From: Flectonema sp. DT1601 | Lineage: Eukaryota | DNA: 46,574 bases | Direction of reading: 5' to 3' | Assembly (NCBI GenBank): GCA_964019425.1 | Contig: OZ025797.1 | Coordinates: 1,364,001-1,410,574 of the forward strand | Shown here: piece by piece, positions 28,923 through 46,574 of the stretch | How positions within the stretch are numbered: the first letter of the stretch is position 1 | Layout of the letters: each line of letters begins with the position of its first letter | Notes under the pieces: generated by a model | What the model was told of the DNA's origin: nothing | What the model saw: the letters and a program-made list of their open reading frames with translations, nothing else | The model's database searches: none | Program-made: the position numbers and the translations under genes

Positions 28923-29999
28923 AGTCCTCCAACACCATCGTCTTCCTCCCTAAAAAAAGTGTTGATTCATGCAGGCTGCTAAAAGAAGACTAATATCCTT
29001 GAAGCCATTTGCATGGGTCTCAGCTGTTAGACCCTCGTTTTTTTTCCGTCCTAGATATCTTTCCCCCCCGATTTTGAATAGATTTTCCTCTTCCCATTTT
29101 TTAATTTGTTACTTACAAAAACACCATGCCTTGTATCAGTTGCGAATTACAACATCTCTTACTCTTTGCAAAAGAAAAAAGGGATCCACCAGAAAGAGAT
29201 TCCATTTGAATTACATAGAAGATTTGAGCAATTTCTCGTATTTCTTGAAGTGATTTTTCGTGATCTGGTGAAGCTTTGTGCAATCTCGTTTGATTCAACA
29301 AATGAGAATGAGACCGTTTGGTTTTCATTTCTTGCTGAGTGATATGGTTATGTGCTGCCCAAATCCTTTGTGGTACGTTTCTAAAGCTTTTCGGTAAGCC
29401 CACAGTACAATTATAATGCTTTGGGCAACTGGGGGTGAACGATCCTCGGTACTGTTCCGGGGTTTTCTATTTTCTTTCGTGGAGTGTGGGCATATGGCAC
29501 ATGTGGTCGTATTATAAAGAACTTTTTTGAGCCTTTTGTCGTTGTTCTGTTAGTTTCTGTCCCACCCAGCTCTTAGGCAGCACCTTACATAGTAGGCCCC
29601 AATTTCCTTGGACCCAAAAAATCCCCAATACTGGTATTAAACCCGCAAAACCCGCAAACCTGCACTAGAGATACCCTTCCAGGCTCGCTTCGCTCACGCA
29701 AAGTTATTTATTTTTTGTACTTCTGAATTAAACTTGTTTTTCCTTTGCTTAAGTATGCTAAAATGAAAACTATGGTTAGGTTATAGTGGTGTGAGGCTTA
29801 TTTCAAGTTACCCATTTTTATGTTTCTGAACAACCTTATTTTACAACTAAGTCACCTCTGTTTTTATTCCCTGTTTCAGGCTTTTTGGTCTTTCCTTTTT
29901 TGGATCTCCAAACAAAAAGTGTCAGCGGGTATCGAAAATTGCAGGTTCGCACATCCAAAACCTGCAAACCCGCAAACCAACACTCAGACTGGTAATTGT

Positions 30000-30914
30000 C
30001 CTTCCATGCTTTGCACCTGTCGAAATAATAAAACTTAAAAACTACACACGCACCAATAACAAGCGATTACACTAGAACGCACGATTGCAAGAACACCCTG
30101 GTTCAAGGTGGCTCGCTGAGGCGGGGTAACTCGAAGTCCGTTTTCGTTGGACTCAGCTCCACCACGGGGTGGAGGGGTGAGGAGGGTGGGCTTCGAAAAC
30201 GTGAGTGTGAGAGAAAGAAGTGATCGAGCTGTATAAAGAATTTCTTTTTGAAAAAATAGAAGGCTAAAGAATATAAAAAATGTCTGTTGTTTTGTTCATT
30301 TTTCCAACTTCGGAATCATACACTTTTCTGTCTGATTCCTTTGATTATTTCTTTCCGCTGCAGACCACCTTATATGTCCACCCATATAGTAAGGTGGTCT
30401 GCAGCTTTGATGGCTTTTAATGTCTGCCCTAAGGCAATCTGCCTCAAGCACATTGATATATGACATGACCTTGAGGCCATGAAGATCCCACAATATCCAA
30501 TTCACCGCTATTCCAAACAATAACACCTCCCCACCCTTTGAGTCATCAACAAACAAACCTCTGCAGTCCTACCACTTTTTCTTTCAGGAAGAATCTTCCT
30601 AGTGCGCTGAACCGCCAGAATCCAACTTGAAAGTTCCTTCTTACCGACAAGGGGATGGTAACATGATCCTGCACCTGTATAGAGCCGTAGTTCAGGCGGT
30701 TTGTGATCCTGCGCATGTACTTCAGGGCAAACCAATACTTCTCGCATGTAGAAGGCGGCCCCCCAGCGATTCAAGCTGTGATGCACTCAAACCTGATAGA
30801 ACACACGTTGAAATCTTCCTCTTAATCTTAGAACCTAAAGAAACGACCTCATCACAGTGAGAGAACGAAACACCCAGAAATTCATAATCCTGCGGCAAGT
30901 TCACTGTGTCACTG
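30000..30914 (-). pseudogene. Decayed YR-retrotransposon fragment (RT C-terminus, RNase H and 3' region) of the same family, inverted
   Basis: Minus-strand YEFLGVSFSH...KIKRKISTCVLSGLSASQLESLGGRLLHA matches YTFLGADFNH...KIRRKISGVNLSNCTASQLESLGGRLVHA. FVDDSKGG and YINVLEA match RNase H motifs. Stops and frameshifts are present. Confidence 0.85.
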
Positions 30915-30945
30915 GCAAACCCGCAAACCCGCAAACCCGCAAACC
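30915..30945 (+). repeat. Short (CCCGCAAA)n tract, left flank of element 1
   Basis: GCAAACCCGCAAACCCGCAAACCCGCAAACC. Confidence 0.95.
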
Positions 30946-31132
30946 TAACTACAGCGGGGAACCGGAACTTCGAAGTACAGCCGTCAGCATCATTTTCTCG
31001 CCATCGTTTGGCGCATCGATACATCCTATCAGAATATATTTCATTTTATTTAGAGCTGTTTAACTCATGTTTACCTTTCCTTTTCTTTCAGCCGACGGGT
31101 TCGACCTATTAAACACTTAAACAAAAAGAAAA
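30946..31132 (+). repeat. Element 1 split direct repeat A1 (187 nt; A2 at 35332-35518)
   Basis: TAACTACAGCGGGG...ACAAAAAGAAAA is duplicated and ends immediately before the gag ATG. Confidence 0.95.
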
Positions 31133-32365
31133 ATGGGTGATACTTATGACTTCGAATTTCCTAACTCATTAGTTACGCTATGGGGAAATACCGGTGAGGA
31201 ACTGCTACCGAGAAGACACATAAATATGCCAGATGTATTGGGTCGGATCCCATGGGCTGATTGGACAAGTGAAGCAGGCAAAATGATGATGATAATGGTG
31301 CTTGCAAGGTGCCTTGGGTGTGATAGAGAAGTAATTCAAGGTATTTCACCGAGAAAGATTGCAATATTAATTGACGCGCTGCGAGGTCGGAATAATTTAA
31401 TTGTTGATAGCATCGCCGAAGCTGTACAGAACGGGACACTAGCAAGCCTTTCTGGGATGCCTCAAGATCCGTTTAGAAAAGTTGAAGCGATTGTAACGAC
31501 AGTTGCAAATAGACAAAGCCAGCAAGACGAGAATCTCACAGGACTGTATCGTAGTACCGCTCAAGAATTTGCGAAGCATGAAGGAGCGATCCGTGCAGTA
31601 AGTAGCGAAGCAGCAAATGCCACGGCCGCCGCGACAACAGCTGTTAAAAGTACCAATGATAGACAAGATTCGCTCGAGTCACGAACGGATGCTTTCGCAA
31701 CAGATGTACTGAATAGGCTGAACAGGCAGTCAAAGCTTATTGAGGAGCAGCAGGAAATGATCTCTAAGCAAGATAAACAAATTGCAAACTTGATGCGGGC
31801 GTCGTACAGATACGTCCACCCAATGAGCGCGCAACCGGCGCCTCGCACGACTGCACCTGAACAGCCGGAGCCAAGGGCTCGGTATGAAGAACCGACTTCC
31901 GCTGAAGAAACAAGAATTCACAATCCAGTCTCGCATACTGTCCGTTCCGTTGCGGAAGACCCTGATAGGTGGATGGAGTACGCAGATGCCAGTAACTTCC
32001 AACTGACGGAATTAATTCGAGAGTTGCGAACATGGGTTCCTAGCAAGAAAGGGGATCTGCAAGATGGGATGGAGGCGGTGATCGGTGCGATCGAAGTCAT
32101 CTTGCATCCGGAACGGGACGCTGAAGACGCTGTGCTTGCCCTTGCCGACAGCTTGCAGGTATTAAGGTGTAAGGCAAGGGATGGATGGAAGGCGGCTGAA
32201 GCTTTTAAAGGTGAACTCTGGAGGGAACAGAATGTTGCCCCACGTTATGCGAAAGCATGGCGGGCGTCTAGCACAGCTAAGGTGAAGTCAAACTACGCTG
32301 CGCGGAAAGAAGTCTCTAGAGGTTCAAAAAACGAAGCTTCAAAGGGCGGCAGGTCCCATCAATGA
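31133..32365 (+). CDS. Gag-like ORF1 (coiled-coil) of element 1
   Basis: First ORF after the A repeat, 410 aa, central coiled-coil and basic C-terminus; position equivalent to gag in YR elements. Confidence 0.8.
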   Translation: MGDTYDFEFPNSLVTLWGNTGEELLPRRHINMPDVLGRIPWADWTSEAGKMMMIMVLARCLGCDREVIQGISPRKIAILIDALRGRNNLIVDSIAEAVQNGTLASLSGMPQDPFRKVEAIVTTVANRQSQQDENLTGLYRSTAQEFAKHEGAIRAVSSEAANATAAATTAVKSTNDRQDSLESRTDAFATDVLNRLNRQSKLIEEQQEMISKQDKQIANLMRASYRYVHPMSAQPAPRTTAPEQPEPRARYEEPTSAEETRIHNPVSHTVRSVAEDPDRWMEYADASNFQLTELIRELRTWVPSKKGDLQDGMEAVIGAIEVILHPERDAEDAVLALADSLQVLRCKARDGWKAAEAFKGELWREQNVAPRYAKAWRASSTAKVKSNYAARKEVSRGSKNEASKGGRSHQ

Positions 32366-35070
32366 AAAGAACGCAAGTGGTTGGGGACGGGCGCACCAGC
32401 CACGCGAAAGTTAAAATGGCGCCGAAATTACCAGAAAAGTCCATTGTCCGGGTTGCAACCGACTTTTCCTACTACCCAAGAGACCCAACCGGAGCTGCCT
32501 ATTCTGACGAGGGAAATTTTAAACCATCTTGGGAAGAAAGACCGAACTCGCTCTGCACATACAGAGGACGGCGTCAGCGCGGAAGACGCTTCGAAGAAGC
32601 TGGCCGACGTGGTCGGGAAGATGTGGGCAGCGAGTACATCGGCGAAGAGACGAAACCTCTGGGCAAGACTCTTATCGTGGGCGGAAGTGAACAGCTTGCC
32701 AGTAAACGCGGAAACCGCTGTCTTATTCGTCCTTGCCACGAGGGTGAAACCACAAGGGCTACTTCAGTATGCAAAGTCCCTATCAGCAATCATGGAGTGT
32801 CTGGGAATGGACAATCGACAGCTACTAACTCTTGCCACCGCGCTACGAGCAGACGGCGCAGCTATTCCGACAAAGCAAGCACGGCCAATTACAAGGGAGG
32901 CTCTCATGGCCTGGGCGGGGTCATCATCGGACGAACTATGGCTGGCAACAATGATCTGCTGGAAGACAGCCTCAAGATGGGGCGAGGTTCAGGCACTCAC
33001 GTCGGAGCAATTCATTCGAGTGGGGAGGGAGGAAGTGATCATCGACTGGCTCAGCACGCCGAAGCTTCGATCAGCAAATCCATTCGTCCCGTCACGTTGG
33101 ACTGTGATACGGGGGAGCATGACGGGAGAGATCTGGTTGCTTTTAAAGGACAAGATTCCATTCGGGGCACTCACAAACAGAACAACAGAAATGTTGGATC
33201 GGATGTGGGGAAGGGATCCGAACATGAAGGGATTTACAGCACACTCGATAAAGCGCGGCGCAGCAACAGTACTTTACGAAAACCTTGCAAAGGGAGCGGA
33301 CTTACCGGAGCACATTATCTCTCGGACCCTGAAGCATGCGGAGAAGGAGACAGGGATATCATCAACATCGCTGAGGTACGGGGGTGCGCCAGCCGACATG
33401 GCAGTTGCTCTACAGACTTGGAAAGCCACCCAGCTCTTGTAAAACATGCACCGCATAGCATCTCGAGAAGGGGCCAGCGGACGAGGCTACCTGTCACAGC
33501 GGAAGAGAAGGCATCACCGCTTCATGTTTCTTCTATAAAACTAATGAATGTTGACGGGCTTCGAGGGAGGCTGAACGACTCGGCAAGGGTGCGGTTTGAT
33601 AGTGTCTGGGATATGGTATTCCCAAGGCAAACACCACCTTCGCGAAGCAGCACACACTCGAAACACTCAACTCTCCAGCCTAGCCATGCTGACGAACTGG
33701 TTAGTCGTTCTATCGCACGCCATGCTGAAGCAGGGGGGGTAATGCAAAATGTGCCGTTCACTGTTGTTGAGGAGAAGGCTGAGGGCTTACGCCAGCGATT
33801 CATACTCTGGACAAAGGGACTGAACGACTGGGGCGAGGGTACTGGGTACCAAGCCGCCGTTCCACTGAAGCACATCTCAGCTTATCTTGGTGCTGTCAAG
33901 CAGGGGTGCGCCACAACTCGTGACTTCAGAACAGGATTCTTTGCGATTGAAATTCCAACATATGCAAGACATCTCTTCAGGTTCCAAGATAGCTCTGGAA
34001 GATGGTTCGAGATGCAACGACTACCGATGGGACATATTGGCGCCCCGGAACTAATGCACACGCTCGCCGCATCCGCTGCAGGACATCCCGACTACGTTAG
34101 AAGTGACATTGCCGTGCACTCCGTTGGTATTGACATCTTTATTGACAATATAAGGTACACAGGGGAGCGGAAGCATATTCTCGATGCGACGACAGTGCTT
34201 GATGAGACTGCTTCGGGTATGTCTATTACATGGAAGGCTTCCGACTCACATACTGCTGCGACAACCTACACGTTCCTCGGGGCGGACTTTAATCATGAGC
34301 TTCGTACGGTAAGGGCTTCTGAGAAAATTCGACGCAAGATAAGTGGTGTGAATCTTTCCAACTGCACAGCTTCACAGCTCGAGTCACTCGGAGGAAGACT
34401 TGTTCACGCAAGCGCAATTGCAGGCGTTCCGATGGGTCAGTTCTGGTATGCAGTGAAGTTCCTTCGAAGGCTTGTCAACGGTCTCAATAGGGGGACCCGC
34501 CGTCCAGAAGCGAATGTTAACATCCCGCCGTCAGTTACCGCACAACTCTCTGCATGGTGCACTGCGGCTCTCAAGCAACAGACGATCTTCCAGCATGATA
34601 GCAGAAATTCAGTTACAACGTTCATCGACGCTTCTATGACGGGATGCGGCGGCGTTATTATTGATGACTCAACAGCTGAAATTATTATCCTCGGCGGCTC
34701 CTGGACGCCATCAGAAGCACGCCTCCACATCAACGTTCTCGAATCTCTTGCATTATCTAAGACGCTTTCTCAGCTTCCCGTAAGATATAAGGGTGGCACC
34801 CTATCACTCTGGATCGATAACACTTCTGTTGTTGGTGCACTTCGAAAGAAACTCTGTGCTAGGTCAGCAGACTTAAACAAGAATGTCGTTCTTTCTTCTA
34901 TAATATTCAAGAACCTCCAGCTCGATGTTAACATCGGATGGGTCGCGTCAGCTAACAATCCAGCTGACATCCCATCACGCCTCCCAGAACACAAAATCTC
35001 ATCGGCATCAACACTGCATACTGTCGAACTTGCGCTGCGGAGGTTTATTACAAGCGACGGGGTGGAGTGA
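32362..35070 (+). CDS. Reverse transcriptase-RNase H ORF of element 1; N-terminal ~360 codons overprint the YR
   Basis: RT motifs TRDFRTGFF, RLPMG, FIDNI, TFLG; DIRS-type RNase H motifs FIDAS, HINVLE, IDNTS, NPADIPSR. Confidence 0.92.
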   Translation: MKRTQVVGDGRTSHAKVKMAPKLPEKSIVRVATDFSYYPRDPTGAAYSDEGNFKPSWEERPNSLCTYRGRRQRGRRFEEAGRRGREDVGSEYIGEETKPLGKTLIVGGSEQLASKRGNRCLIRPCHEGETTRATSVCKVPISNHGVSGNGQSTATNSCHRATSRRRSYSDKASTANYKGGSHGLGGVIIGRTMAGNNDLLEDSLKMGRGSGTHVGAIHSSGEGGSDHRLAQHAEASISKSIRPVTLDCDTGEHDGRDLVAFKGQDSIRGTHKQNNRNVGSDVGKGSEHEGIYSTLDKARRSNSTLRKPCKGSGLTGAHYLSDPEACGEGDRDIINIAEVRGCASRHGSCSTDLESHPALVKHAPHSISRRGQRTRLPVTAEEKASPLHVSSIKLMNVDGLRGRLNDSARVRFDSVWDMVFPRQTPPSRSSTHSKHSTLQPSHADELVSRSIARHAEAGGVMQNVPFTVVEEKAEGLRQRFILWTKGLNDWGEGTGYQAAVPLKHISAYLGAVKQGCATTRDFRTGFFAIEIPTYARHLFRFQDSSGRWFEMQRLPMGHIGAPELMHTLAASAAGHPDYVRSDIAVHSVGIDIFIDNIRYTGERKHILDATTVLDETASGMSITWKASDSHTAATTYTFLGADFNHELRTVRASEKIRRKISGVNLSNCTASQLESLGGRLVHASAIAGVPMGQFWYAVKFLRRLVNGLNRGTRRPEANVNIPPSVTAQLSAWCTAALKQQTIFQHDSRNSVTTFIDASMTGCGGVIIDDSTAEIIILGGSWTPSEARLHINVLESLALSKTLSQLPVRYKGGTLSLWIDNTSVVGALRKKLCARSADLNKNVVLSSIIFKNLQLDVNIGWVASANNPADIPSRLPEHKISSASTLHTVELALRRFITSDGVE
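32366..33442 (+). CDS. Tyrosine recombinase of element 1 (in the gag frame, open from the gag UGA; start uncertain)
   Basis: Catalytic-type motifs KTASRWGEV (R), AHSIKRGAA (H..R), LKH (H), SLRYG (Y). Confidence 0.9.
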   Translation, partial: KERKWLGTGAPATRKLKWRRNYQKSPLSGLQPTFPTTQETQPELPILTREILNHLGKKDRTRSAHTEDGVSAEDASKKLADVVGKMWAASTSAKRRNLWARLLSWAEVNSLPVNAETAVLFVLATRVKPQGLLQYAKSLSAIMECLGMDNRQLLTLATALRADGAAIPTKQARPITREALMAWAGSSSDELWLATMICWKTASRWGEVQALTSEQFIRVGREEVIIDWLSTPKLRSANPFVPSRWTVIRGSMTGEIWLLLKDKIPFGALTNRTTEMLDRMWGRDPNMKGFTAHSIKRGAATVLYENLAKGADLPEHIISRTLKHAEKETGISSTSLRYGGAPADMAVALQTWKATQLL

Positions 35071-35329
35071 GGCAGGCCAACCGGTGCCGCTACTCGGACT
35101 GCTCACTCACATGGCTTTCTGCCACGCTCAGCCGATAGCGACCACCACCTGCGGTCTACTTACCTCACTTCGTGAAAAGAATTTGTGAACTCTTATAGTT
35201 TAATTTCTCTATCCTTCCTAGTGATAGACGAGCTACTTAGTTTTATCCATAGTTTCATGTTTTACTATTACATTTCTTCTACTCTTATCTTTCCTTCCTT
35301 TCTTTCAGGCTGTACAGGAGTTATGGTTC
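35071..35329 (+). repeat. Element 1 split direct repeat B1 (259 nt; B2 at 35538-35796)
   Basis: GGCAGGCCAACCGG...TTATGGTTC is duplicated and starts right after the RT stop codon. Confidence 0.95.
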
Positions 35330-35796
35330 CCTAACTACAGCGGGGAACCGGAACTTCGAAGTACAGCCGTCAGCATCATTTTCTCGCCATCGTTTGGCGC
35401 ATCGATACATCCTATCAGAATATATTTCATTTTATTTAGAGCTGTTTAACTCATGTTTACCTTTCCTTTTCTTTCAGCCGACGGGTTCGACCTATTAAAC
35501 ACTTAAACAAAAAGAAAACCCACCCACCGACCCCCTCGGCAGGCCAACCGGTGCCGCTACTCGGACTGCTCACTCACATGGCTTTCTGCCACGCTCAGCC
35601 GATAGCGACCACCACCTGCGGTCTACTTACCTCACTTCGTGAAAAGAATTTGTGAACTCTTATAGTTTAATTTCTCTATCCTTCCTAGTGATAGACGAGC
35701 TACTTAGTTTTATCCATAGTTTCATGTTTTACTATTACATTTCTTCTACTCTTATCTTTCCTTCCTTTCTTTCAGGCTGTACAGGAGTTATGGTTC

Positions 35797-37086
35797 CCCG
35801 CAAACCCGCAAACCCGCAAACCCGCAAACCCGCAAACCCGCAAACCCGCAAACCCGCAAACCCGCAAACCCGCAAACCCGCAAACCCGCAAACCCGCAAA
35901 CCCGCAAACCCGCAAACCCGCAAACCCGCAAACCCGCAAACCCGCAAACCCGCAAACCCGCAAACCCGCAAACCCGCAAACCCGCAAACCCGCAAACCCG
36001 CAAACCCGCAAACCCGCAAACCCGCAAACCCGCAAACCCGCAAACCCGCAAACCCGCAAACCCGCAAACCCGCAAACCCGCAAACCCGCAAACCCGCAAA
36101 CCCGCAAACCCGCAAACCCGCAAACCCGCAAACCCGCAAACCCGCAAACCCGCAAACCCGCAAACCCGCAAACCCGCAAACCCGCAAACCCGCAAACCCG
36201 CAAACCCGCAAACCCGCAAACCCGCAAACTCGCAAACCCGCAAACCCGCAAACCCGCAAACCCGCAAACCCGCAAACCCGCAAACCCGCAAACCCGCAAA
36301 CCCGCAAACCCGCAAACCCGCAAACCCGCAAACCCGCAAACCCGCAAACCCGCAAACCCGCAAACCCGCAAACCCGCAAACCCGCAAACCCGCAAACCCG
36401 CAAACCCGCAAACCCGCAAACCCGCAAACCCGCAAACCCGCAAACCCGCAAACCCGCAAACCCGCAAACCCGCAAACCCGCAAACCCGCAAACCCGCAAA
36501 CCCGCAAACCCGCAAACCCGCAAACCCGCAAACCCGCAAACCCGCAAACCCGCAAACCCGCAAACCCGCAAACCCGCAAACCCGCAAACCCGCAAACCCG
36601 CAAACCCGCAAACCCGCAAACCCGCAAACCCGCAAACCCGCAAACCCGCAAACCCGCAAACCCGCAAACCCGCAAACCCGCAAACCCGCAAACCCGCAAA
36701 CCCGCAAACCCGCAAACCCGCAAACCCGCAAACCCGCAAACCCGCAAACCCGCAAACCCGCAAACCCGCAAACCCGCAAACCCGCAAACCCGCAAACCCG
36801 CAAACCCGCAAACCCGCAAACCCGCAAACCCGCAAACCCGCAAACCCGCAAACCCGCAAACCCGCAAACCCGCAAACCCGCAAACCCGCAAACCCGCAAA
36901 CCCGCAAACCCGCAAACCCGCAAACCCGCAAACCCGCAAACCCGCAAACCCGCAAACCCGCAAACCCGCAAACCCGCAAACCCGCAAACCCGCAAACCCG
37001 CAAACCCGCAAACCCGCAAACCCGCAAACCCGCAAACCCGCATACCCGCAAACCCGCAAACCCGCAAACCCGCAAACCCGCAAACC
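35797..37086 (+). repeat. (CCCGCAAA)n telomere-like octamer array, about 161 units
   Basis: Perfect 8-bp tandem repeat with two single-base variants seen (36230, 37043). Confidence 0.99.
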
Positions 37087-37298
37087 AACACTCAGACTGG
37101 GAACTGCACAAAAGGCAAGTGAAGTACGATATACTCTTATAATATTTTCCTTTTCATTGATCAATATTAAATGTTGTTTAAGTATTATTTCTGTTCTCTT
37201 GTCTTTATTTCAGAATTATCATTTCACTGTTTCTCTTATCATTATTTCATTGTACTCATTTATTCAGGCTAGGAAGGGGTCTTAACGCAAAGCGTTTT
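37087..37298 (+). repeat. Element 2 split direct repeat A1 (212 nt; A2 at 42459-42670)
   Basis: AACACTCAGACTGGG...GCAAAGCGTTTT is duplicated. Confidence 0.95.
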
Positions 37299-37306
37299 AA
37301 GAAAAT

Positions 37307-39343
37307 ATGCCGGATCATTATTATGATTTTTCGGTGCCCGCTAGTATCGCCGGGAAGGCGAAGGCGATACTAGGGGAGGTGGGGCGCATGAAGGTGTCCC
37401 TGGAGGCAAGGAACCGCAGGTTCCAACAAGCGATGGGGCTGTCCGGTGGGGACAGCATTTGGATGCCCACCTGTCGGGAGGACAGCAATTCATCCCGCAG
37501 AGCTGACAACGACAAGTTGTTAGCTCTGTGTCTCGACATCCCGGTGGGGTTGGCGAGAACGCTGTCGGCACGGACTGTGTTCGTGCTGTTGACGGGCCTG
37601 GTCGAGGTCAACGCCGATGCGGTGAAGGAGAGGATGAGAAGGCTGGGGACGATGACGGGCTCGGCACCCTCGGTTCCGTCGCCGATGACGGGGGGGAGGT
37701 CGACCCTCATGGTGATGGAGGTGGACTCGATGGAACAGGTGCCACCGCCGGTTTTCGCGGAACCGGTTTCGGGAACGAACCCCAGTTTGGAGGGGTTGGC
37801 TCGCGCGGGAGGCATGGCCTACCGGGAGCTGAAGGGTCAGGCTGTGGCCCACCAATCGGTGACGGAGCAGTTGGCTGCTCGCCAAGCACAACACACGACG
37901 GCCGGGGAGAACCTGGAAGTCACCGTGAGCCGGGTGGCCCAGGTGATCAACGAGCAAGCCCGGAGGCAGGTGAAGGCGGAAGAACACACCGCCATGGTTG
38001 AAGGTGCGGCCGAAGAGGCTTTCAACTCCGTAGCGGATAGGCAGGAAGAGCTCGGGGAGGCTGTGATGCAGATGGCGAAGGAAAAGGCCAGACAGGACGG
38101 GGTGCTGAAGACCGAGCAGCAGAAGCGGGAGGAGTTGCGGCAGCGACTCGAGCTGCAGCAAAACCTGCTGGACCAACAGAGGGAGGAGCAGGAATTACAG
38201 AAGCAGCAGCAACAAAAGCAAGAACTGCAGAGTCAATTGGCACAAGAACAGCAACAGAAGCAGATTCAACAACAGCAAGCTCAGCAACAACAGTTCCAAG
38301 AGGATCAACGGAAGTTGGAGGAGCAGTTAAGGCTTCGGGACGAGCTGCTGAAGCAACAACAAGTGCAACAACAGGAACAGCAACGCCAGCTGGACCAGCA
38401 CAAGCTGGCGGAACAAGCGAAGAGCAACGAGCAGCAGCTTCAGCAGCAGCAGCTCCAGCAACAGCAGCTGCTGCAACAGGAGCAGAACAAGTTTCAGCAA
38501 CAGGAACAACGGAGGTTGGAGGAGAGTCTGAACGCACAGCAACAGCAGATGACTCAACAACAGCAGGCGCTGCAGCAGCAGGCGCTACAGCAGCAGGGTC
38601 TGCTGCTTCAACAACGGCAAGCACCGACAGCGCAGGACGGGCTGAGCACGGTGTTATCGCAGATGGCGACAACGCTCCACCACCTAGTACCGAAGACGAA
38701 GGTGGTCGCTTTCCCGGCAGGTATGTGCAGGGGATCGAAGGTGAAGCGCGGGTCGGACAAGGGATTCGTGGTGGATCTCGACGGTGTGACCGGGGAGGTG
38801 GTCCTGGGATTGATTGGTAGGCGGGAGTCATTCTTTGTGCTCACGCCTGAACAATTTAAAGAAGAAGGTTGGCTGTTGGCCCATTGGAATGCGGAGGTGC
38901 CTGCGGTGCAGGTGCCATTGGAACAGGCAGCGGCGCAGCATACGTTGTGGGCTGGCTACGGTGGGCGAGGTGACGTGGAGATGTCCCTCCTCCGGCGGGC
39001 GATCACGGAGAAGTTCGGAGAGGGTGGTTCGCAAGTTGCGAAGCAGATGGTAGGTCTGTTGGCGAAGACGGTGGAGGCGACCATCAACGGTGGGGAGGAA
39101 GTGACCTTAGGGTTGCTTCACGAGATGCTGGAGTTCCAACTGATTCGGGGGGAGCACGGGAGCAGGAGTGGCGACTTGTACCTGAAGGCGCTGGCTGAGA
39201 GCTGGGAGGACCCCACCACCGCTGCGGCGAGGAAGGTAGCGTTGAAGGGTAGCAGGCCAGCCGGTTTGGTGAGGGGGACGACAACGACCGGACAACAGCC
39301 ACAACACTTTCCAAAAAACGGGGGGCGTGGTCGGGGGAATTGA
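37307..39343 (+). CDS. Gag-like ORF1 of element 2 with a long Gln-rich coiled coil
   Basis: 678 aa. N-terminus MPDHYYDFSVPAS resembles MGDTYDFEFPNS of element 1, and LLALCLDIP resembles VLARCLGCD. Confidence 0.8.
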   Translation: MPDHYYDFSVPASIAGKAKAILGEVGRMKVSLEARNRRFQQAMGLSGGDSIWMPTCREDSNSSRRADNDKLLALCLDIPVGLARTLSARTVFVLLTGLVEVNADAVKERMRRLGTMTGSAPSVPSPMTGGRSTLMVMEVDSMEQVPPPVFAEPVSGTNPSLEGLARAGGMAYRELKGQAVAHQSVTEQLAARQAQHTTAGENLEVTVSRVAQVINEQARRQVKAEEHTAMVEGAAEEAFNSVADRQEELGEAVMQMAKEKARQDGVLKTEQQKREELRQRLELQQNLLDQQREEQELQKQQQQKQELQSQLAQEQQQKQIQQQQAQQQQFQEDQRKLEEQLRLRDELLKQQQVQQQEQQRQLDQHKLAEQAKSNEQQLQQQQLQQQQLLQQEQNKFQQQEQRRLEESLNAQQQQMTQQQQALQQQALQQQGLLLQQRQAPTAQDGLSTVLSQMATTLHHLVPKTKVVAFPAGMCRGSKVKRGSDKGFVVDLDGVTGEVVLGLIGRRESFFVLTPEQFKEEGWLLAHWNAEVPAVQVPLEQAAAQHTLWAGYGGRGDVEMSLLRRAITEKFGEGGSQVAKQMVGLLAKTVEATINGGEEVTLGLLHEMLEFQLIRGEHGSRSGDLYLKALAESWEDPTTAAARKVALKGSRPAGLVRGTTTTGQQPQHFPKNGGRGRGN

Positions 39344-42159
39344 ATCCTGGCCGTAAACAAACCCGTAGAGGGCGTCGCGGGAGGAGGGGCGGCAAGTGGG
39401 CCGCGGCCTCTCCTGGTCGGCGCGGTGCCAGCTGGAATGCGACGTGGGTCAACGAGTGTCGTCGCACCGGAACCTTGCGCGAGTACGCAAGAGGGATTCC
39501 GAAAACGAAGATGCGCTGCGCAGGTGGAAGTTCCGTCGGTTTTCGGGAAGGTGGTCCTCGAACACATCCGGAGGGACGATCGACACCGTGGAGACACGAT
39601 GGAAGTAAGGGTGGACCACGACACAGCGTTGGAGCGTCTGGGGGTGGTCGTCGCGTCGATGTGGGCGGACGAAACCTCGTCGAAGCGCAGAAACCTCTGG
39701 GGTCGGTTGGAACAATGGGCGTTGGCTCAGCGTCTGCCAATGTCTGCCGAAACAGCTGCGTTGTTCGTGCTGGCCACAGACGTGAGACCGCAGGGACAGC
39801 TGCAATACGCAAAGGCGCTGTCCGGGATCTACCGGCACCTTGGTCTGGAAAACCAACCGCTCCTCAGCCTGGCAAGCGCGCTGAGGGCAAAAGGGGCGGC
39901 CGTTCCGCGTTCGCAAGCAGTTCCCATGTCAAAGGAGCAGCTGTTGGGTTGGGCGAGAAGTCTAACGGGACGTTTGAGGCTCGCGGCGTTGGTGTGTTGG
40001 AAGTCGGCTTCCCGGTGGGGAGAAGTGCACGTGCTGACGTCGGCGCATTTCGTTCTGGTGGAGGACGCGGAAGTGATCGTGGACTGGGGGACGTCGCCAA
40101 AACACCGGAGAGCAAACCCGTTCGTGCCGTCCCGTTGGGCGGTCTTGCGGGGGGATCTGGTCGGGGAGATCGCAAGCTTGTTTCGGGAGCTGGCTCCTTT
40201 CGATCGGCTGACGGATGTCACCACCGAGCGGTTGGCAGAGTTGTGGCGGGGGACTCCGGGAATGCGGGGTTTTACGGGCCACTCGATAAAACGAGGCGCC
40301 GCCGCGGCTTTGATGCGAGCGATGGCCGAGGGAAGGCTCACAGAAGGGTACCTGGTATCACGACTGTTGAAGCACGCCGAAGACGGAACCAACATCTCTG
40401 CAACAACGATCAGGTATTCGTCGGATTTCGTGGACACCGCCCGAGCGCTGCAAACGTGGAAGGTCACCATCCTGCTGTAGTTGCGGAGGACGTTGACGAC
40501 GAAGGTGAGGCGATGGAAGCGGTGGCGCGGCTGTCTCCGTGCACGACGCACAGCATCATCAGGAGGGGCAAGCGGACAAGACTGCCGTCGACGGCGGAGG
40601 AACGTTCGTCGCCTTTGCATGTGAGTGGCGTTGAGACGATGGATGTTGACGGACTCAGACGTAGGATGACTGATGTTGCGAGGGATAGGTTCGATCAGGT
40701 GTGGAACTTGACCTTTTATCCGGAGGTGGGGAAGTTGAGTCGCTCGTCGTCTACTTCATCTTTCGCTGGGAGGCACGCTGCGGAGTTGCTGAGGAACGGG
40801 ATCGCGCGAGCTGCGAGTGGACCGGGGAGAGCGGTGAACGTTCCATTCACCGTGGTGGAGGAGAAGCCGGAGGGACTGCGGCAGCGGTTCATCCTTTGGA
40901 CGAGGGATGCGAATGGTTGGGCCGAAGAAGCTTACGAAGCTCACGTCCCGCTGTTCCACATCTCAAAATATTTGGATCGGGTTCTGACCGAGGTTGGCTC
41001 GACACGGGATTTCAAGACAGGTTTTTATGCTATTGAAATCCCGGAGGAAGCGAGAGATCTCTTCCGATTCAAGACGACGGAGGGTGAATGGTTCGAGCTG
41101 TGCCGTTTACCGATGGGGCATGTCTGCGCGCCGGAGCTGATGCACTCTTTGGCAGCGGCGGCTGCGGGGGATCCAGCTTACGTGCGACGTCAGTGGGCTG
41201 CCAGGGATGTTGGCGTTGACGTGTTCATCGACAACATTCGGTACACGGGGACGGAAGGCGCGGTGTTGGCGGCGACGGTGAATCTCGATGCTGCGGCGGC
41301 GGATTTCCGTCTTACATGGAAGCCGTCTGACTCGAATACGGCGGTGAGCAAGTACACATTTTTGGGTGTGGACTTTGACCACGAGGCGTCGTCGGTCATG
41401 CCGTCAGCGAAGATCCGGCGGAAGTTGGCGGCGGTGGACTTGTCGTCTGTGACGGCGAGTCAGTTGGAGTCGATGGCTGGGAGGCTGATGCATGCGTCGG
41501 CGATCGCTGCGGCGTCTCCGGGGAAATACTGGTATGCCTTGAAGTTCTTGCGGAGGTTGTCGAACGGTTTGAACCGCGGGGTGAGGCAGGTGCATGATGT
41601 AGTGTCGGTCCCTGTTTCGGTCGCGATGGAGTTGCGCAGTTGGTCGGCTGCCGCTGTGACGAGGAGGGTGGTTGCGCGGGAGCCAGATCAAGATGGGTTC
41701 ACGACGTTCGTGGATGCGTCGTTGAGAGGTTGGGGTGGAGTGGTTGTGAACGACAGGACGGCCGAGGTTACTGTCTTGGGGGATGCGTGGGGTCCTTCGG
41801 AACAGTCGCTCCACATCAATGTTCTCGAGGGGATGGCGTTCAGGAACACGGTCTCGGGGATGCCGGTTTGCTGTGATGGCAAGCGAATGTCCATCTGGAT
41901 CGACAACACGTCAGTCATTGGCGTAGCACGGAAGAAGATGTCAGTCCGATCGCAACGGCTGAACGATGCGGTCGTGCAGGCCATCGATGTGCTGGCAGAC
42001 AGAAAGGTTAGTTTCTGTATTGCTTATGTGAAGTCAGCGCTGAACCCAGCAGACTTGCCATCGAGGGTGGATCCAGGAGTTATAGGCTCATCGGAGCATC
42101 AGCGGGAAGTTGAACTTGCGGTGAGGGCCTTTCTGACTCGCGATGTGGTGGTGGTGTGA
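39340..42159 (+). CDS. Reverse transcriptase-RNase H ORF of element 2; N-terminal part overprints the YR
   Basis: TRDFKTGFY, RLPMG, FIDNI, TFLG; RNase H motifs FVDAS, HINVLE, IDNTS, NPADLPSR. Confidence 0.92.
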   Translation: MNPGRKQTRRGRRGRRGGKWAAASPGRRGASWNATWVNECRRTGTLREYARGIPKTKMRCAGGSSVGFREGGPRTHPEGRSTPWRHDGSKGGPRHSVGASGGGRRVDVGGRNLVEAQKPLGSVGTMGVGSASANVCRNSCVVRAGHRRETAGTAAIRKGAVRDLPAPWSGKPTAPQPGKRAEGKRGGRSAFASSSHVKGAAVGLGEKSNGTFEARGVGVLEVGFPVGRSARADVGAFRSGGGRGSDRGLGDVAKTPESKPVRAVPLGGLAGGSGRGDRKLVSGAGSFRSADGCHHRAVGRVVAGDSGNAGFYGPLDKTRRRRGFDASDGRGKAHRRVPGITTVEARRRRNQHLCNNDQVFVGFRGHRPSAANVEGHHPAVVAEDVDDEGEAMEAVARLSPCTTHSIIRRGKRTRLPSTAEERSSPLHVSGVETMDVDGLRRRMTDVARDRFDQVWNLTFYPEVGKLSRSSSTSSFAGRHAAELLRNGIARAASGPGRAVNVPFTVVEEKPEGLRQRFILWTRDANGWAEEAYEAHVPLFHISKYLDRVLTEVGSTRDFKTGFYAIEIPEEARDLFRFKTTEGEWFELCRLPMGHVCAPELMHSLAAAAAGDPAYVRRQWAARDVGVDVFIDNIRYTGTEGAVLAATVNLDAAAADFRLTWKPSDSNTAVSKYTFLGVDFDHEASSVMPSAKIRRKLAAVDLSSVTASQLESMAGRLMHASAIAAASPGKYWYALKFLRRLSNGLNRGVRQVHDVVSVPVSVAMELRSWSAAAVTRRVVAREPDQDGFTTFVDASLRGWGGVVVNDRTAEVTVLGDAWGPSEQSLHINVLEGMAFRNTVSGMPVCCDGKRMSIWIDNTSVIGVARKKMSVRSQRLNDAVVQAIDVLADRKVSFCIAYVKSALNPADLPSRVDPGVIGSSEHQREVELAVRAFLTRDVVVV
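39344..40480 (+). CDS. Tyrosine recombinase of element 2 (in the gag frame, open from the gag UGA)
   Basis: KSASRWGEV, GHSIKRGAA, LKH, TIRYS; colinear with the element 1 YR. Confidence 0.9.
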   Translation: MLAVNKPVEGVAGGGAASGPRPLLVGAVPAGMRRGSTSVVAPEPCASTQEGFRKRRCAAQVEVPSVFGKVVLEHIRRDDRHRGDTMEVRVDHDTALERLGVVVASMWADETSSKRRNLWGRLEQWALAQRLPMSAETAALFVLATDVRPQGQLQYAKALSGIYRHLGLENQPLLSLASALRAKGAAVPRSQAVPMSKEQLLGWARSLTGRLRLAALVCWKSASRWGEVHVLTSAHFVLVEDAEVIVDWGTSPKHRRANPFVPSRWAVLRGDLVGEIASLFRELAPFDRLTDVTTERLAELWRGTPGMRGFTGHSIKRGAAAALMRAMAEGRLTEGYLVSRLLKHAEDGTNISATTIRYSSDFVDTARALQTWKVTILL

Positions 42160-42456
42160 CGGTGCCAACCTTTCCCCCGGCCGATTTTAGGCCGTGGTCG
42201 AACATGCAATTGTACAAGCATGCGGTGCCGTTTTCCCATTACCCCTTCGTGAATGAGTTGCTTCGTGTTAACTTGGTTCTCCTTTGTCTTTCTCATCATC
42301 ATTTTATTCAGCTGAGAAAATGGGAAAGCTAAGACGACATGAGGCTTATGATGCTAGTATCTTGTTATGTGGTTAATTCGTGTGATTGTTTTTATCAGAC
42401 TCTCCTTTATGACTTTTCCTTTTCAACAGTACTTCACTGAGAATGCCGAGCGGTTC
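42155..42456 (+). repeat. Element 2 split direct repeat B1 (302 nt; B2 at 42688-42989)
   Basis: TGTGACGGTGCCAACC...GAGCGGTTC is duplicated. Confidence 0.95.
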
Positions 42457-42989
42457 CCAACACTCAGACTGGGAACTGCACAAAAGGCAAGTGAAGTACG
42501 ATATACTCTTATAATATTTTCCTTTTCATTGATCAATATTAAATGTTGTTTAAGTATTATTTCTGTTCTCTTGTCTTTATTTCAGAATTATCATTTCACT
42601 GTTTCTCTTATCATTATTTCATTGTACTCATTTATTCAGGCTAGGAAGGGGTCTTAACGCAAAGCGTTTTCCCACCCGCCCTACCCCTGTGACGGTGCCA
42701 ACCTTTCCCCCGGCCGATTTTAGGCCGTGGTCGAACATGCAATTGTACAAGCATGCGGTGCCGTTTTCCCATTACCCCTTCGTGAATGAGTTGCTTCGTG
42801 TTAACTTGGTTCTCCTTTGTCTTTCTCATCATCATTTTATTCAGCTGAGAAAATGGGAAAGCTAAGACGACATGAGGCTTATGATGCTAGTATCTTGTTA
42901 TGTGGTTAATTCGTGTGATTGTTTTTATCAGACTCTCCTTTATGACTTTTCCTTTTCAACAGTACTTCACTGAGAATGCCGAGCGGTTC

Positions 42990-45900: not shown

Positions 45901-46574
45901 ACCCGCAAACCCGCAAACCCGCAAACCCGCAAACCCGCAAACCCGCAAACCCGCAAACCCGCAAACCCGCAAACCCGCAAACCCGCAAACCCGCAAACCC
46001 GCAAACCCGCAAACCCGCAAACCCGCAAACCCGCAAACCCGCAAACCCGCAAACCCGCAAACCCGCAAACCCGCAAACCCGCAAACCCGCAAACCCGCAA
46101 ACCCGCAAACCCGCAAACCCGCAAACCCGCAAACCCGCAAACCCGCAAACCCGCAAACCCGCAAACCCGCAAACCCGCAAACCCGCAAACCCGCAAACCC
46201 GCAAACCCGCAAACCCGCAAACCCGCAAACCCGCAAACCCGCAAACCCGCAAACCCGCAAACCCGCAAACCCGCAAACCCGCAAACCCGCAAACCCGCAA
46301 ACCCGCAAACCCGCAAACCCGCAAACCCGCAAACCCGCAAACCCGCAAACCCGCAAACCCGCAAACCCGCAAACCCGCAAACCCGCAAACCCGCAAACCC
46401 GCAAACCCGCAAACCCGCAAACCCGCAAACCCGCAAACCCGCAAACCCGCAAACCCGCAAACCCGCAAACCCGCAAACCCGCAAACCCGCAAACCCGCAA
46501 ACCCGCAAACCCGCAAACCCGCAAACCCGCAAACCCGCAAACCCGCAAACCCGCAAACCCGCAAACCCGCAAAC
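42990..46574 (+). repeat. (CCCGCAAA)n octamer array, at least 448 units, runs off the window end
   Basis: Uninterrupted 8-bp tandem repeat. Confidence 0.99.

What the first reader, a model, noticed from the sequence alone, without database searches (positions are those of the whole stretch)
32363..32640. YR lies in the gag frame behind a single UGA: probable stop-codon readthrough as a second recoding event
Seen: in both elements the YR frame equals the gag frame and is open from the codon after the gag TGA (32363-32365; 39341-39343). In element 1 the first YR-frame ATG is at MWAAST, yet the region upstream is conserved between elements (EILNHLGKKDR...ASKKLADVVGKMWA vs VVLEHIRRDDR...ALERLGVVVASMWA), implying translation without an initiator. 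Inference: one mRNA yields Gag, Gag-RT (-1 shift) and Gag-YR (UGA readthrough) from a switch region of about 40 nt. I do not know this combination from described YR elements.
Basis: partly seen in the sequence, partly recalled or inferred. Interest (0 to 1): 0.8.

Follow-up and report, generated by a model that had tools for sequence, protein, structure and literature searches.

The report
Three-way translational switch in retrotransposons
Two telomere-embedded retrotransposons, and every intact relative found, keep their recombinase gene in the gag reading frame behind one stop codon just after a frameshift site, so one mRNA would likely yield Gag, Gag-reverse transcriptase and, by predicted stop-codon readthrough, Gag-recombinase.

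Summary
In both elements, gag and the tyrosine-recombinase (YR) ORF share a frame and are separated by one TGA (32363-32365; 39341-39343). Element 1 has no in-frame ATG for 85 codons, yet that stretch contains conserved YR N-terminal sequence.

New here:
- An in-frame A_AAA_AAC slippery heptamer lies 30 nt (element 1) and 21 nt (element 2) before the TGA.
- The -1 (RT/RNase H) frame stays open across the whole YR gene. About 8-11 stops are expected; P(0) <= 1e-4 in each element.
- The layout is family-wide. In 50 metagenome relatives, RT is -1 to YR in 27 of 27 sequences that have both.
- 31 of 44 sequences with an upstream stop have a gag ORF of at least 100 aa in the YR frame behind exactly one stop.
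- In the 31 intact copies that stop is TGA 28 times, TAG 3 times, TAA never. TGA is followed by C (17, mostly CUN) or A (11); TAG is followed by G.
- The 1075 codons between the stop and the first possible AUG hold 0 frame-0 stops, against 73 in the +1 frame.

Best reading: -1 frameshifting gives Gag-RT/RH and UGA readthrough gives Gag-YR. Translation itself is untested. The elements are VIPER/TATE-like. I found no published account of this recoding.

The parts
30944..31132 (+). Element 1 split direct repeat A1 (100% identical to A2 at 35330-35518), preceded by CCCGCAAA repeats
   Evidence: family D16, D17
31133..32365 (+). Element 1 gag-like ORF (ATG 31133, TGA 32363-32365); gag-like by position only, no family hit
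32326..32332 (+). Element 1 slippery heptamer A_AAA_AAC, in the gag frame (TCA AAA AAC), 30 nt before the TGA
32363..32365 (+). Element 1 gag stop TGA (context CAA UGA AAA): predicted readthrough site
32366..33442 (+). Element 1 YR ORF in the gag frame. Residues 1-41 are a predicted disordered spacer, conserved helices start at residue 46, the first ATG is at 32621, and the Cre-like two-domain fold spans residues 71-328
32320..35070 (+). Element 1 -1 frame ORF (916 codons). A G/S/R-rich linker overprinted on the whole YR gene is followed by RT/RNase H (33445-35067)
35071..35798 (+). Element 1 3' split direct repeats B1 (35071-35331), A2 (35330-35518) and B2 (35538-35798), abutting the CCCGCAAA array
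37085..37298 (+). Element 2 repeat A1 (100% identical to A2 at 42457-42670)
37307..39343 (+). Element 2 gag-like ORF (Q-rich coiled region), TGA at 39341-39343
39313..39319 (+). Element 2 slippery heptamer A_AAA_AAC, in frame (CCA AAA AAC), 21 nt before the TGA
39328..39353 (+). Element 2 predicted 9-bp hairpin starting 9 nt after the heptamer, with the gag UGA in its 8-nt loop
   Evidence: whole 100-nt window z -1.12, so weak on its own; family-wide pattern
39344..40480 (+). Element 2 YR ORF in the gag frame (TAG at 40478-40480)
39253..42159 (+). Element 2 -1 frame ORF (968 codons): G/R-rich linker over the YR gene, then RT/RNase H
42155..42987 (+). Element 2 3' split direct repeats B1 (42155-42454), A2 (42457-42670) and B2 (42688-42987), abutting the CCCGCAAA array that runs to the window end

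Best explanation
Each element is an intact VIPER/TATE-like tyrosine-recombinase retrotransposon whose single full-length mRNA is predicted to be decoded three ways within about 40 nt. Shown from sequence: gag, one stop, then YR in one frame; a canonical slippery heptamer just before that stop; and a -1 ORF that is kept open over the entire YR gene and continues into RT/RNase H. Inferred: most ribosomes terminate at the gag UGA and give Gag. A fraction slip -1 at A_AAA_AAC and give Gag, a low-complexity linker and RT/RH. A further fraction decode the UGA as sense and give Gag, a disordered spacer and YR. No protease was detected in any ORF. Two separate Gag fusions would therefore bring both enzymes to the Gag-RNA complex without polyprotein processing; this last step is inference.
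For: 1. Both elements show gag, one TGA and YR in a single frame. Element 1 has no ATG for 85 codons.

2. The YR protein needs sequence upstream of that Met. The N-terminal 38 columns are conserved in homologues, and the 'M' is I, L or T in several. The profile hit is frame-specific. In the AlphaFold model (pLDDT 81.9) helix 72-86 ends at Met86, and model residues 71-328 align to Cre residues 21-319 (Z 13.6, rmsd 3.6-3.9, 243-248 residues aligned).

3. The -1 frame across YR has 0 stops, where 8.1-11.2 are expected under codon-order or synonymous shuffles. P(0) <= 1e-4 per element in 20000 shuffles each. No slippery site lies near the YR stop. The conserved, structured N-terminus of RT starts right after the YR stop with no ATG in element 1. 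So RT is likely reached from the heptamer at the end of gag.

4. Family-wide pattern in E1, E2 and 50 metagenome loci:
- RT is -1 relative to YR in 27 of 27 sequences with both.
- 31 of 44 sequences with an upstream stop have an ORF of at least 100 aa in the YR frame behind exactly one stop.
- 33 of 44 have an in-frame canonical or near-canonical heptamer 3-75 nt before that stop: AAAAAAC 7, GGGAAAC 13, GGGTTTT 8, CCCAAAC 1, TTTAAAC 1, near-canonical 3.

5. The 31 intact copies form 25 clusters at >= 60% YR identity. Gag stops are TGA 28, TAG 3, TAA 0, against TGA 27, TAG 16, TAA 5 for the YR and RT stops (Fisher p = 0.0012). The base after TGA is C in 17 (CUN 15, CGN 2), A in 11, and never G or U. 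All 3 TAG are followed by G. UGA-CUA/CGG and UAG-G are the published Type II and Type III readthrough contexts (Firth 2011, PMC3159437, passages read).

6. The 1075 codons between the gag stop and the first in-frame ATG (or the conserved N-terminus) hold 0 stops in frame 0, 0 in the -1 frame and 73 in the +1 frame. Frame-0 expectation is 5.1 (synonymous permutation of the -1 frame) to 14.2 (codon-order shuffle).

7. In-frame ATGs in the spacer are no more frequent than chance: 3 of 30 spacers lack one, where 2.8-5.1 are expected.

8. The split direct repeats are 100% identical in both elements, so these are recent, probably active copies.
Against: - No RNA, ribosome or protein data exist here. 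The one sequencing run holding the DNA gave only low-depth contigs.
- The 90 nt after the stop are not more structured than a control window: mean z +0.36 against +0.06. A classical 3' readthrough stimulator is therefore not seen.
- The window's own contexts (UGA AAA, UGA AUC) are not the classical UGA-C.
- The structure after the element 1 heptamer is not significant (z 0.11).
- The shared gag/YR frame cannot drift, because any non-triplet indel would break the Gag-RT link. It is an inherited state, not 25 independent observations.
- 27 of 30 spacers do contain an in-frame ATG, and L016, L018 and L019 have ATG directly after the TGA. Separate initiation is possible in most relatives.
- The frame-0 stop expectation under the nulls that preserve the -1 frame is only 5-14.
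- Diplonema papillatum annotators start two homologues at the MWA Met.
- A search for longer, stop-free Gag-YR fusions found none, only one chimeric gene model. This is weak evidence.
Confidence: 0.68

Rival explanations
1. YR is translated on its own from the full-length RNA. Ribosomes that terminate at the gag UGA would reinitiate, or initiate internally, at a nearby AUG or near-cognate codon. The shared frame would be a frozen legacy.
For: 27 of 30 spacers hold an in-frame ATG before the conserved YR N-terminus. L016, L018 and L019 read TGA-ATG, and L025 reads TGA-CTA-ATG. D. papillatum gene models start at the MWA Met. The frame relation is locked by the -1 ORF, so it needs no readthrough to persist.
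Against: E1, L006 and L022 have no in-frame ATG before the conserved N-terminal helices. ATG frequency in the spacers equals chance. An ATG next to the stop is not kept even within one clade: L025 has one, L024, L028 and L029 do not. Frame 0 has no stop in the 1075 codons that lie before any usable ATG, which reinitiation does not require. The codon after TGA is CUN in all four forms, not specifically CUG.
Confidence: 0.15
2. YR is made from a dedicated processed mRNA. A spliced-leader trans-splice or cis-splice acceptor between the gag stop and YR would be used, as expected in a euglenozoan host, and translation would start at the first AUG (MWAAST in element 1).
For: The nearest homologues are from Diplonema papillatum, a lineage with SL trans-splicing and introns (PMC10161547, passages read). 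In element 1 a pyrimidine-rich tract followed by AG lies near 32465-32480, and the next ATG in any frame is the MWA Met (read by eye). A conserved, frame-independent GCAAGT motif follows the stop in about 20 of 47 loci and is unexplained.
Against: Starting at Met86 would remove helices 46-55 and 72-86. Those are conserved, and helix 72-86 aligns with the start of Cre's N-terminal domain. The Met is not conserved in homologues. This model does not explain why frame 0 is open from the gag stop onward, the UGA bias, or the +4 context.
Confidence: 0.1
3. The stop-free frame 0 after gag is a by-product of composition, because the low-complexity linker in the -1 frame rarely has T at its second codon position. 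YR expression would be unrelated to the gag stop, and YR in these two copies could be supplied in trans or not at all.
For: Nulls that keep the -1 frame codons expect only 5.1-14.2 frame-0 stops in 1075 codons. In the one clade with close pairs, spacer substitutions are spread almost evenly over codon positions.
Against: Even those nulls give P(0) of about 0.006 to 7e-7 (Poisson on the expectations). The YR domain is under clear purifying selection in frame 0: mismatches by codon position are 10/4/67 for L024 against L025. Both window copies have intact ORFs and 100% identical terminal repeats. The stop-codon and context biases remain unexplained.
Confidence: 0.05

Closest known systems
VIPER and TATE (VIPER-like tyrosine-recombinase retrotransposons of kinetoplastids; Ribeiro et al. 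2019, PMC6681497)
   Same: Gene order gag-like, YR, RT/RH. Split direct repeats A1 ... B1-A2-B2. YR and RT/RH ORFs 'overlapped'. RT/RH ORF of about 950 aa. No protease or DDE integrase was detected. Telomere association (TATE). TATE-like ORFs are reported in Diplonema papillatum (PMC10161547).
   Different: The host is diplonemid-like rather than kinetoplastid, and insertion is into an 8-nt CCCGCAAA repeat. The papers I could read treat the three ORFs as separate genes with their own starts and do not mention a slippery site, a single in-frame gag stop or readthrough. Kinetoplastid VIPER/TATE DNA could not be fetched, so I did not test whether they share the switch.
Gammaretrovirus (MuLV) gag-UAG-pol readthrough
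   Same: gag and a downstream enzyme ORF lie in one frame, separated by one leaky stop, giving a Gag fusion at low frequency.
   Different: [quoted passage not shown] Here the stop is mostly UGA-C or UGA-A with no detectable 3' structure. Only the recombinase lies downstream, and RT is reached by a separate -1 shift a few codons earlier.
Retroviral and luteovirus-type -1 programmed frameshift cassettes
   Same: An X_XXY_YYZ heptamer in the gag frame, followed after 1-9 nt by a stable stem, with the 0-frame stop shortly downstream. The heptamers AAAAAAC, GGGAAAC and GGGUUUU are ones I recall from MMTV gag-pro, BWYV and BYDV; this is recalled, not checked in a call.
   Different: The -1 ORF runs for 350-640 codons over another functional gene before reaching its own domain. 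The 0-frame stop inside the stimulator is itself a predicted recoding site.
Type II readthrough signals (alphavirus nsP3/nsP4, tobravirus; UGA-CUA / UGA-CGG)
   Same: 17 of 28 family UGA stops are followed by C: CUN 15, CGN 2.
   Different: Type II signals usually include an extended stem-loop about 8 nt downstream (Firth 2011), which is not detected here. The window's two elements have UGA-A.
DIRS-1 and other YR retrotransposons with overlapping YR and RT ORFs
   Same: Extensive overlap of the YR and RT/RH reading frames is described as frequent in YR elements (Ribeiro 2019 background).
   Different: Gene order and repeat type differ: DIRS has inverted repeats and YR usually lies 3' (recalled). 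I did not examine their junctions.

Membership tests
VIPER-like (VIPER/TATE) YR retrotransposon | Gene order gag-like ORF, tyrosine recombinase, RT/RNase H | tested here: met
   Searches give the order. YR: Cre fold. RT/RH: profile hits CaMV RT at 1.4e-18 and Ty3 RT/RH at 2e-11; Foldseek hits foamy virus and CaMV RT at 6e-21 and 8e-20.
VIPER-like (VIPER/TATE) YR retrotransposon | Split direct repeats: A1 at the 5' end, B1-A2-B2 at the 3' end | tested here: met
   all four repeat pairs are 100% identical in both elements.
VIPER-like (VIPER/TATE) YR retrotransposon | Sequence clustering with kinetoplastid VIPER or TATE proteins | not tested
   Database hits were unnamed or Diplonema papillatum hypothetical proteins. 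No named VIPER or TATE protein was returned, and no tree was built.
Tyrosine recombinase | Two-domain Cre/integrase fold with the catalytic R, K, H-x-x-R, H/W, Y residues | tested here: met
   Fold: Z 13.6 to Cre over model residues 71-328. Invariant or nearly invariant R204, K233, H293, R297, H324 and Y338 in 22 sequences. Pfam itself gives no hit.
-1 programmed ribosomal frameshift cassette | X_XXY_YYZ heptamer in the upstream frame, inside the overlap with a -1 ORF | tested here: met
   E1 32326-32332, E2 39313-39319. 33 of 44 related sequences have one.
-1 programmed ribosomal frameshift cassette | Stimulatory RNA structure a few nt downstream of the heptamer | tested here: inconclusive
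   Family-wide: the 90 nt after the heptamer have mean z -1.79 against +0.06 for the control, paired t p = 1.7e-4, n = 31. The stem starts 1-7 nt after the heptamer in 32 of 33 folds. The window's own elements are weak: E1 z 0.11, E2 z -1.12.
-1 programmed ribosomal frameshift cassette | Frameshift product observed | not testable with these tools
   No RNA, ribosome or protein data.
Programmed stop-codon readthrough | Coding ORF in frame directly after the stop, with no second stop, conserved in relatives | tested here: met
   0 frame-0 stops in 1075 codons before any usable ATG in 28 intact sequences.
Programmed stop-codon readthrough | Leaky stop and favourable 3' context (UGA-C, UGA-CUA/CGG, UAG-G) | tested here: inconclusive
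   Family: TGA 28 of 31; C after TGA in 17 of 28; G after all 3 TAG. The window elements have UGA-A, a context shared by 11 of 28.
Programmed stop-codon readthrough | Stimulatory 3' RNA structure | tested here: not met
   The 90 nt after the stop have mean z +0.36 against +0.06 for the control, p = 0.19. Pairing of the downstream GCAAGT motif with the stop region is supported only in L001, L002 and L004.
Programmed stop-codon readthrough | Readthrough product observed | not testable with these tools
   No RNA holder was listed for the stretch.

The most novel reading that the evidence does not exclude
All VIPER-like retrotransposons of euglenozoans and their unnamed environmental relatives are expressed through one compact three-way ribosomal decision point: terminate, slip -1, or read through a UGA that sits inside the frameshift hairpin. 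This sets the ratio Gag : Gag-RT/RH : Gag-YR from a single mRNA and replaces protease processing. It also forces the whole 1.1-2.4 kb recombinase gene to be overprinted by the Gag-RT linker, one of the longest obligatory dual-coding stretches in a eukaryotic element.
Probability: 0.5. Interest if true: 0.85.

Novelty: new variant of a known kind. Interest (0 to 1): 0.78.

Why it matters
-1 frameshifting and stop-codon readthrough are each textbook. I know of no element, and found none in print, where both operate within a few codons of each other on the same gag terminus to make two alternative Gag-enzyme fusions.

If true, it would explain three things about this family:
- why the YR and RT/RH ORFs of VIPER/TATE-type elements overlap completely, a feature so far only described;
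- how elements without a protease or an obvious YR start codon express their enzymes;
- why the gag stop is almost always UGA.

It also gives recoding research about 25 diverged natural variants of one cassette, with three heptamer types and several stop contexts. Annotators of euglenozoan genomes would get a rule for modelling these repeats as fusions rather than as three separate genes.

Tried and rejected
- Whole-genome search: no genome is held for this window.
- Rfam over the whole window: no hits.
- Pfam at default thresholds: nothing on any ORF, including the 704-aa tandem ORFs. At E <= 10 there were only sub-threshold RVT_1 and RT_RNaseH hits.
- Sequencing runs: one holder of unknown kind, no RNA holder listed. 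Laying it gave 10 short contigs at depth about 2 over 32511-35023, with three G>A differences, no joints and no loose ends. This says nothing about transcripts or splicing.
- Earlier findings of this scan: nothing for this genome or these words.
- Literature search for the 8-nt repeat as a telomere: only chance primer matches.
- Frameshift at the end of YR as the route to RT: rejected. No slippery heptamer lies near either YR stop, and it would not explain the open -1 frame over YR.
- Pseudoknot between the stop region and the downstream GCAAGT motif: mean z about 0 over 18 loci, supported only in L001, L002 and L004.
- Search for stop-free Gag-YR fusion proteins ('longer' search): one hit, a chimeric YR-then-RT gene model.
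- UGA reassigned as a sense codon: rejected. UGA occurs once per 770-1060-codon frame here and also ends many YR and RT ORFs.
- dN/dS between the two window elements in the spacer: not attempted. The spacers are unalignable. Codon-position counts were possible only in one clade of relatives.
- Lorenzi et al. 2006, the original full-length VIPER paper, is not held. I cannot exclude that it remarks on the frame relations.

Full report
**What is in the window.**
The right third of the window holds two retroelements on the + strand, each flanked by arrays of the 8-nt repeat CCCGCAAA.
- Element 1 (E1) spans about 30944-35798 and element 2 (E2) about 37085-42987.
- Each has a gag-like ORF, then a tyrosine-recombinase (YR) ORF, then an RT/RNase H ORF.
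- Each has split direct repeats, A1 at the 5' end and B1-A2-B2 at the 3' end. All repeat pairs are 100% identical.
- That architecture is the one described for VIPER and TATE of kinetoplastids (Ribeiro 2019, PMC6681497, sections 6 and 7 read).
- The nearest database proteins are hypothetical proteins of Diplonema papillatum and unnamed environmental sequences. The Diplonema genome paper mentions TATE-like ORFs (PMC10161547, passages read).
- Pfam gives no hit above threshold, so I checked the domains in other ways.
  - YR: an AlphaFold model of the E1 YR ORF (pLDDT 81.9) matches Cre recombinase. Foldseek gives E 4e-6. VIA-align gives Z 13.6, rmsd 3.6-3.9, 243-248 residues aligned, model 71-328 on Cre 21-319. 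The R, K, H-x-x-R, H and Y positions are invariant or nearly so in 22 sequences.
  - RT/RH: a profile of 15 RT/RH sequences hits cauliflower mosaic virus RT at 1.4e-18 and Ty3 RT/RNase H at 2e-11. The RT model (pLDDT 88.4) matches foamy virus, CaMV and MLV RTs at E 1e-18 to 6e-21.

**The observation.**
It is correct as written.
- Translating from the gag frame gives exactly one stop in each element, and the frame then continues open through YR. The stops are TGA 32363-32365 and TGA 39341-39343.
- In E1 the first in-frame ATG after the stop is codon 86, at 32621, the M of MWAAST.
- The stretch before it is homologous to the N-terminus of related recombinases.
  - The 38 alignment columns before MWA are conserved, and the 'M' is I, L or T in several homologues, so it is not a conserved initiator.
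  - A profile of those columns from 15 homologues, built without the window's elements, scores E1 frame 0 at 9.1 bits (E 1.3e-4 per sequence). The five other translations tested score <= 1.6 bits, including E2 frame 0 at 1.6 bits.
  - In the model, residues 1-41 are disordered, and helices 46-55 and 72-86 precede Met86.
  - The Cre alignment begins at model residue 71, which corresponds to Cre residue 21. From memory, that is the start of Cre's first N-terminal helix.
- A protein starting at Met86 would lack these elements.

- Both elements carry the canonical slippery heptamer A_AAA_AAC in the gag frame. In E1 it is TCA AAA AAC at 32326-32332, 30 nt before the TGA. In E2 it is CCA AAA AAC at 39313-39319, 21 nt before the TGA. 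The surrounding gag sequences are otherwise unalignable.
- The -1 frame entered there is open for 916 and 968 codons. It covers the whole YR ORF before reaching RT/RH.
- This is not chance. Shuffling YR codon order or permuting synonymous codons gives 8.1-11.2 expected -1-frame stops, and at most 2 of 20000 shuffles per test have none. The +1 frame has 16 and 13 stops.
- The conserved and confidently modelled N-terminus of the RT protein starts immediately after the YR stop. In E1 it has no ATG before it.
- No slippery heptamer lies near either YR stop.
- So RT/RH is most simply reached by a -1 shift at the end of gag. Translation would run through a 358-378-residue linker rich in G, S, R and A that is overprinted on YR.

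**Relatives.**
A scan of metagenome contigs with the YR alignment returned 50 loci at 25-45% identity. I analysed them together with E1 and E2, 52 sequences in all, by tblastn and stop-to-stop ORF tracing.

*Frame and overlap.*
- RT lies in the -1 frame relative to YR in 27 of 27 sequences that have both.
- In 26 of these the -1 ORF covers the YR ORF as far as the contig reaches. L014 is the exception.

*The stop upstream of YR.*
- 8 sequences have no upstream stop within the contig and are uninformative.
- Of the 44 with one, the stop is TGA in 40, TAG in 3 (L012, L031, L032) and TAA in 1 (L035).
- In 31 of the 44 the ORF upstream of that single stop, in the same frame, is 111-874 aa long.
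- In 7 it runs off the contig.
- In 6 (L008, L014, L035, L036, L041, L043) a second stop lies close upstream. All six also have a truncated or frame-split YR match or an interrupted -1 frame, so they look decayed.

*Slippery heptamers.*
- 33 of the 44 have an in-frame heptamer 3-75 nt before the stop: AAAAAAC 7, GGGAAAC 13, GGGTTTT 8, CCCAAAC 1, TTTAAAC 1, and near-canonical GGCTTTT or GGATTTT 3.
- L005 has GGGGGGT, and L016 has none that I could recognise.

*Intact copies.*
- I call a copy intact if it has a listed heptamer and an uninterrupted -1 frame from the heptamer past YR. That gives 31 sequences in 25 clusters at >= 60% YR identity.
- 13 sequences were left out of this set for the reasons printed.
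- L004, L005, L016 and L038 were left out although they also show gag, one TGA and YR. L004 and L038 have an interrupted -1 frame. L005 and L016 lack a heptamer from my list.

**RNA structure.**
- In 32 of 33 folds, a stem starting 1-7 nt after the heptamer pairs with sequence beyond the stop, so the gag stop sits inside the predicted frameshift stimulator. E1 is the exception among these 33.
- The 90 nt after the heptamer are more structured than a control window 300 nt further on: mean z -1.79 against +0.06, paired t p = 1.7e-4, n = 31.
- The window's own elements are weak on this measure. E1 has z 0.11. E2 has z -1.12, with a 9-bp hairpin at 39328-39353 holding the UGA in its loop.
- The 90 nt after the stop alone show no excess structure, mean z +0.36.

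**Is the stop read through?**

*Evidence for.*
1. The recombinase needs residues that in E1, L006 and L022 precede any in-frame ATG.
2. Over the 1075 codons between the gag stop and the first in-frame ATG (or the conserved N-terminus) in 28 intact sequences, there are 0 stops in frame 0, 0 in frame -1 and 73 in frame +1. Nulls that keep the -1 frame's codons expect 5.1 frame-0 stops (synonymous permutation) or 14.2 (codon-order shuffle).
3. In-frame ATGs in the spacers occur at chance frequency. 3 of 30 spacers lack one, where 2.8-5.1 are expected, so there is no sign of selection for an initiator.
4. The gag stop is TGA 28, TAG 3, TAA 0, against TGA 27, TAG 16, TAA 5 for the YR and RT stops of the same sequences (Fisher p = 0.0012, not corrected for relatedness).
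5. TGA is followed by C in 17 (CUN 15, CGN 2) and by A in 11, never by G or U. All three TAG are followed by G, and L012 reads UAG-GUA. UGA-CUA/CGG, UAG-G and the luteovirus UAG-GUA are published readthrough contexts (Firth et al. 2011, PMC3159437, passages read).
6. In the one clade with close pairs, YR-domain substitutions fall on frame-0 third positions (for example 10/4/67). The spacer evolves almost evenly over positions, with indels of 6, 60 and 63 nt. That fits a translated but unconstrained linker in both frames.

*Evidence against, or limits.*
- The common frame of gag and YR is not independent evidence. Any single non-triplet indel between the heptamer and RT would break the Gag-RT link, so the frame relation is frozen.
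- The stop-free statistic is only moderately strong, because the low-complexity -1 frame rarely creates frame-0 stops.
- Most relatives do have an in-frame ATG in the spacer, and three have ATG directly after the stop.
- No 3' stimulator was found.
- E1 and E2 have UGA-A.
- No stop-free Gag-YR fusion was found.
- There are no expression data.

**Mechanism I commit to (confidence 0.68).**
One full-length RNA is decoded three ways.
- Termination at the UGA gives Gag.
- A -1 slip at the heptamer gives Gag, linker and RT/RH.
- Readthrough of the UGA gives Gag, spacer and YR.

The sequence layout and its conservation are shown. Both recoding events and the fusion proteins are inferred. No protease was detected in any ORF. 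The idea that two separate Gag fusions replace polyprotein processing is my inference.

The rivals are separate initiation or reinitiation (0.15), a spliced or trans-spliced YR mRNA (0.10), and a compositional by-product (0.05).

**Comparison with what is known.**
- The family (VIPER-like YR retrotransposons) and the overlap of the YR and RT/RH ORFs are known. This is stated in Ribeiro 2019, Ludwig 2016 (PMC5146736, passages) and a 2025 trypanosomatid mobilome paper (PMC12278014, passages).
- Those texts treat the ORFs as separate genes. [quoted passage not shown]
- In those three papers the word 'frameshift' occurs only for mutations or not at all. In Ribeiro 2019, the one text in which I searched for them, 'readthrough', 'read-through' and 'slippery' do not occur. 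'Stop codon' is absent from Ribeiro 2019 and the 2025 paper, and in Ludwig 2016 the passages shown use it only for degenerate copies.
- The 2016 frameshifting review (PMC5009743, first 300,000 characters held) has no occurrence of 'tyrosine recombinase', DIRS, VIPER or Ngaro.
- Five full-text searches combining these element names with recoding terms found no paper describing such recoding.
- The original VIPER paper (Lorenzi 2006) is not held. Supplements were not read.
- Within those limits the dual recoding model is new: a new variant built from two known mechanisms in a known family.

**Verdict.**
- Novelty: new variant of a known kind.
- Interest: 0.78.

Noticed in passing
window 35797-37089 and 42980-46574; also 30917-30945 and 29958-29978: There are long arrays of the 8-nt unit CCCGCAAA (TTTGCGGG on the other strand), and the window ends in one, so they look telomeric. 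Both elements are inserted in the same register...GCAAACC | element ... GGTTCCC | CGCAAACC. This suggests site-specific insertion into the repeat, as the name TATE implies. A literature search for the unit found no telomere report.
   Followed up: partly
window 8-57 nt after each gag stop (E1 32374-32380; E2 near 39393); loci L001-L050: A motif (C/T)GCAAGT follows the gag stop in about 20 of 47 related sequences, in all three codon phases, against a background for CAAGT of 1.7 per kb. Pairing with the stop region is supported only in L001, L002 and L004. Its function is unknown.
   Followed up: partly
window 34138-34152 (E1) and 41221-41235 (E2), RT motif C; P0028, P0029, P0031: The RT 'YXDD' box reads (F/W/Y)(I/V)DN in both elements, in L006 and L034, and in the Diplonema-type homologues. 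L031 and L032 keep YVDD. The second catalytic Asp is replaced by Asn across a whole clade of apparently intact copies.
   Followed up: partly
window 1-22741: There is a tandem array with period about 3661 bp. Five copies carry an identical-length 704-aa ORF (2430-4544, 6091-8205, 9752-11866, 13388-15502, 17049-19163), with a 638-aa variant at 20825-22741. There is no Pfam hit and no Rfam hit.
   Followed up: partly
window 29958-30940: Remnants of a third element lie here. An E2-type left end (AACACTCAGACTGG) follows CCCGCAAA-like repeats at 29979. An RT fragment lies on the minus strand at 30725-30940, 48% identical to E1 RT residues 257-329.
   Followed up: no
window 32362-32365: In E1 the gag stop overlaps an ATG (ATGA) that is in the -1 (RT) frame, a stop-start arrangement. 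It is not conserved in E2 (AATTGA).
   Followed up: no
window 35180-35310, 35420-35480, 37130-37270, 42230-42440: The terminal repeats contain several long pyrimidine tracts ending in AG (for example ...tttccttcctttctttcag). By eye these look like splice or trans-splice acceptor sites. SIRE/VIPER repeats are known to supply such sites in trypanosomes (recalled).
   Followed up: no
L004:1050-1178: The gag-like ORF of relative L004 ends with a CCHC zinc knuckle (CYYCNKVGHTADKC) just before its GGGAAAC heptamer. This supports the gag assignment for the family. E1 and E2 gag have no such motif.
   Followed up: no
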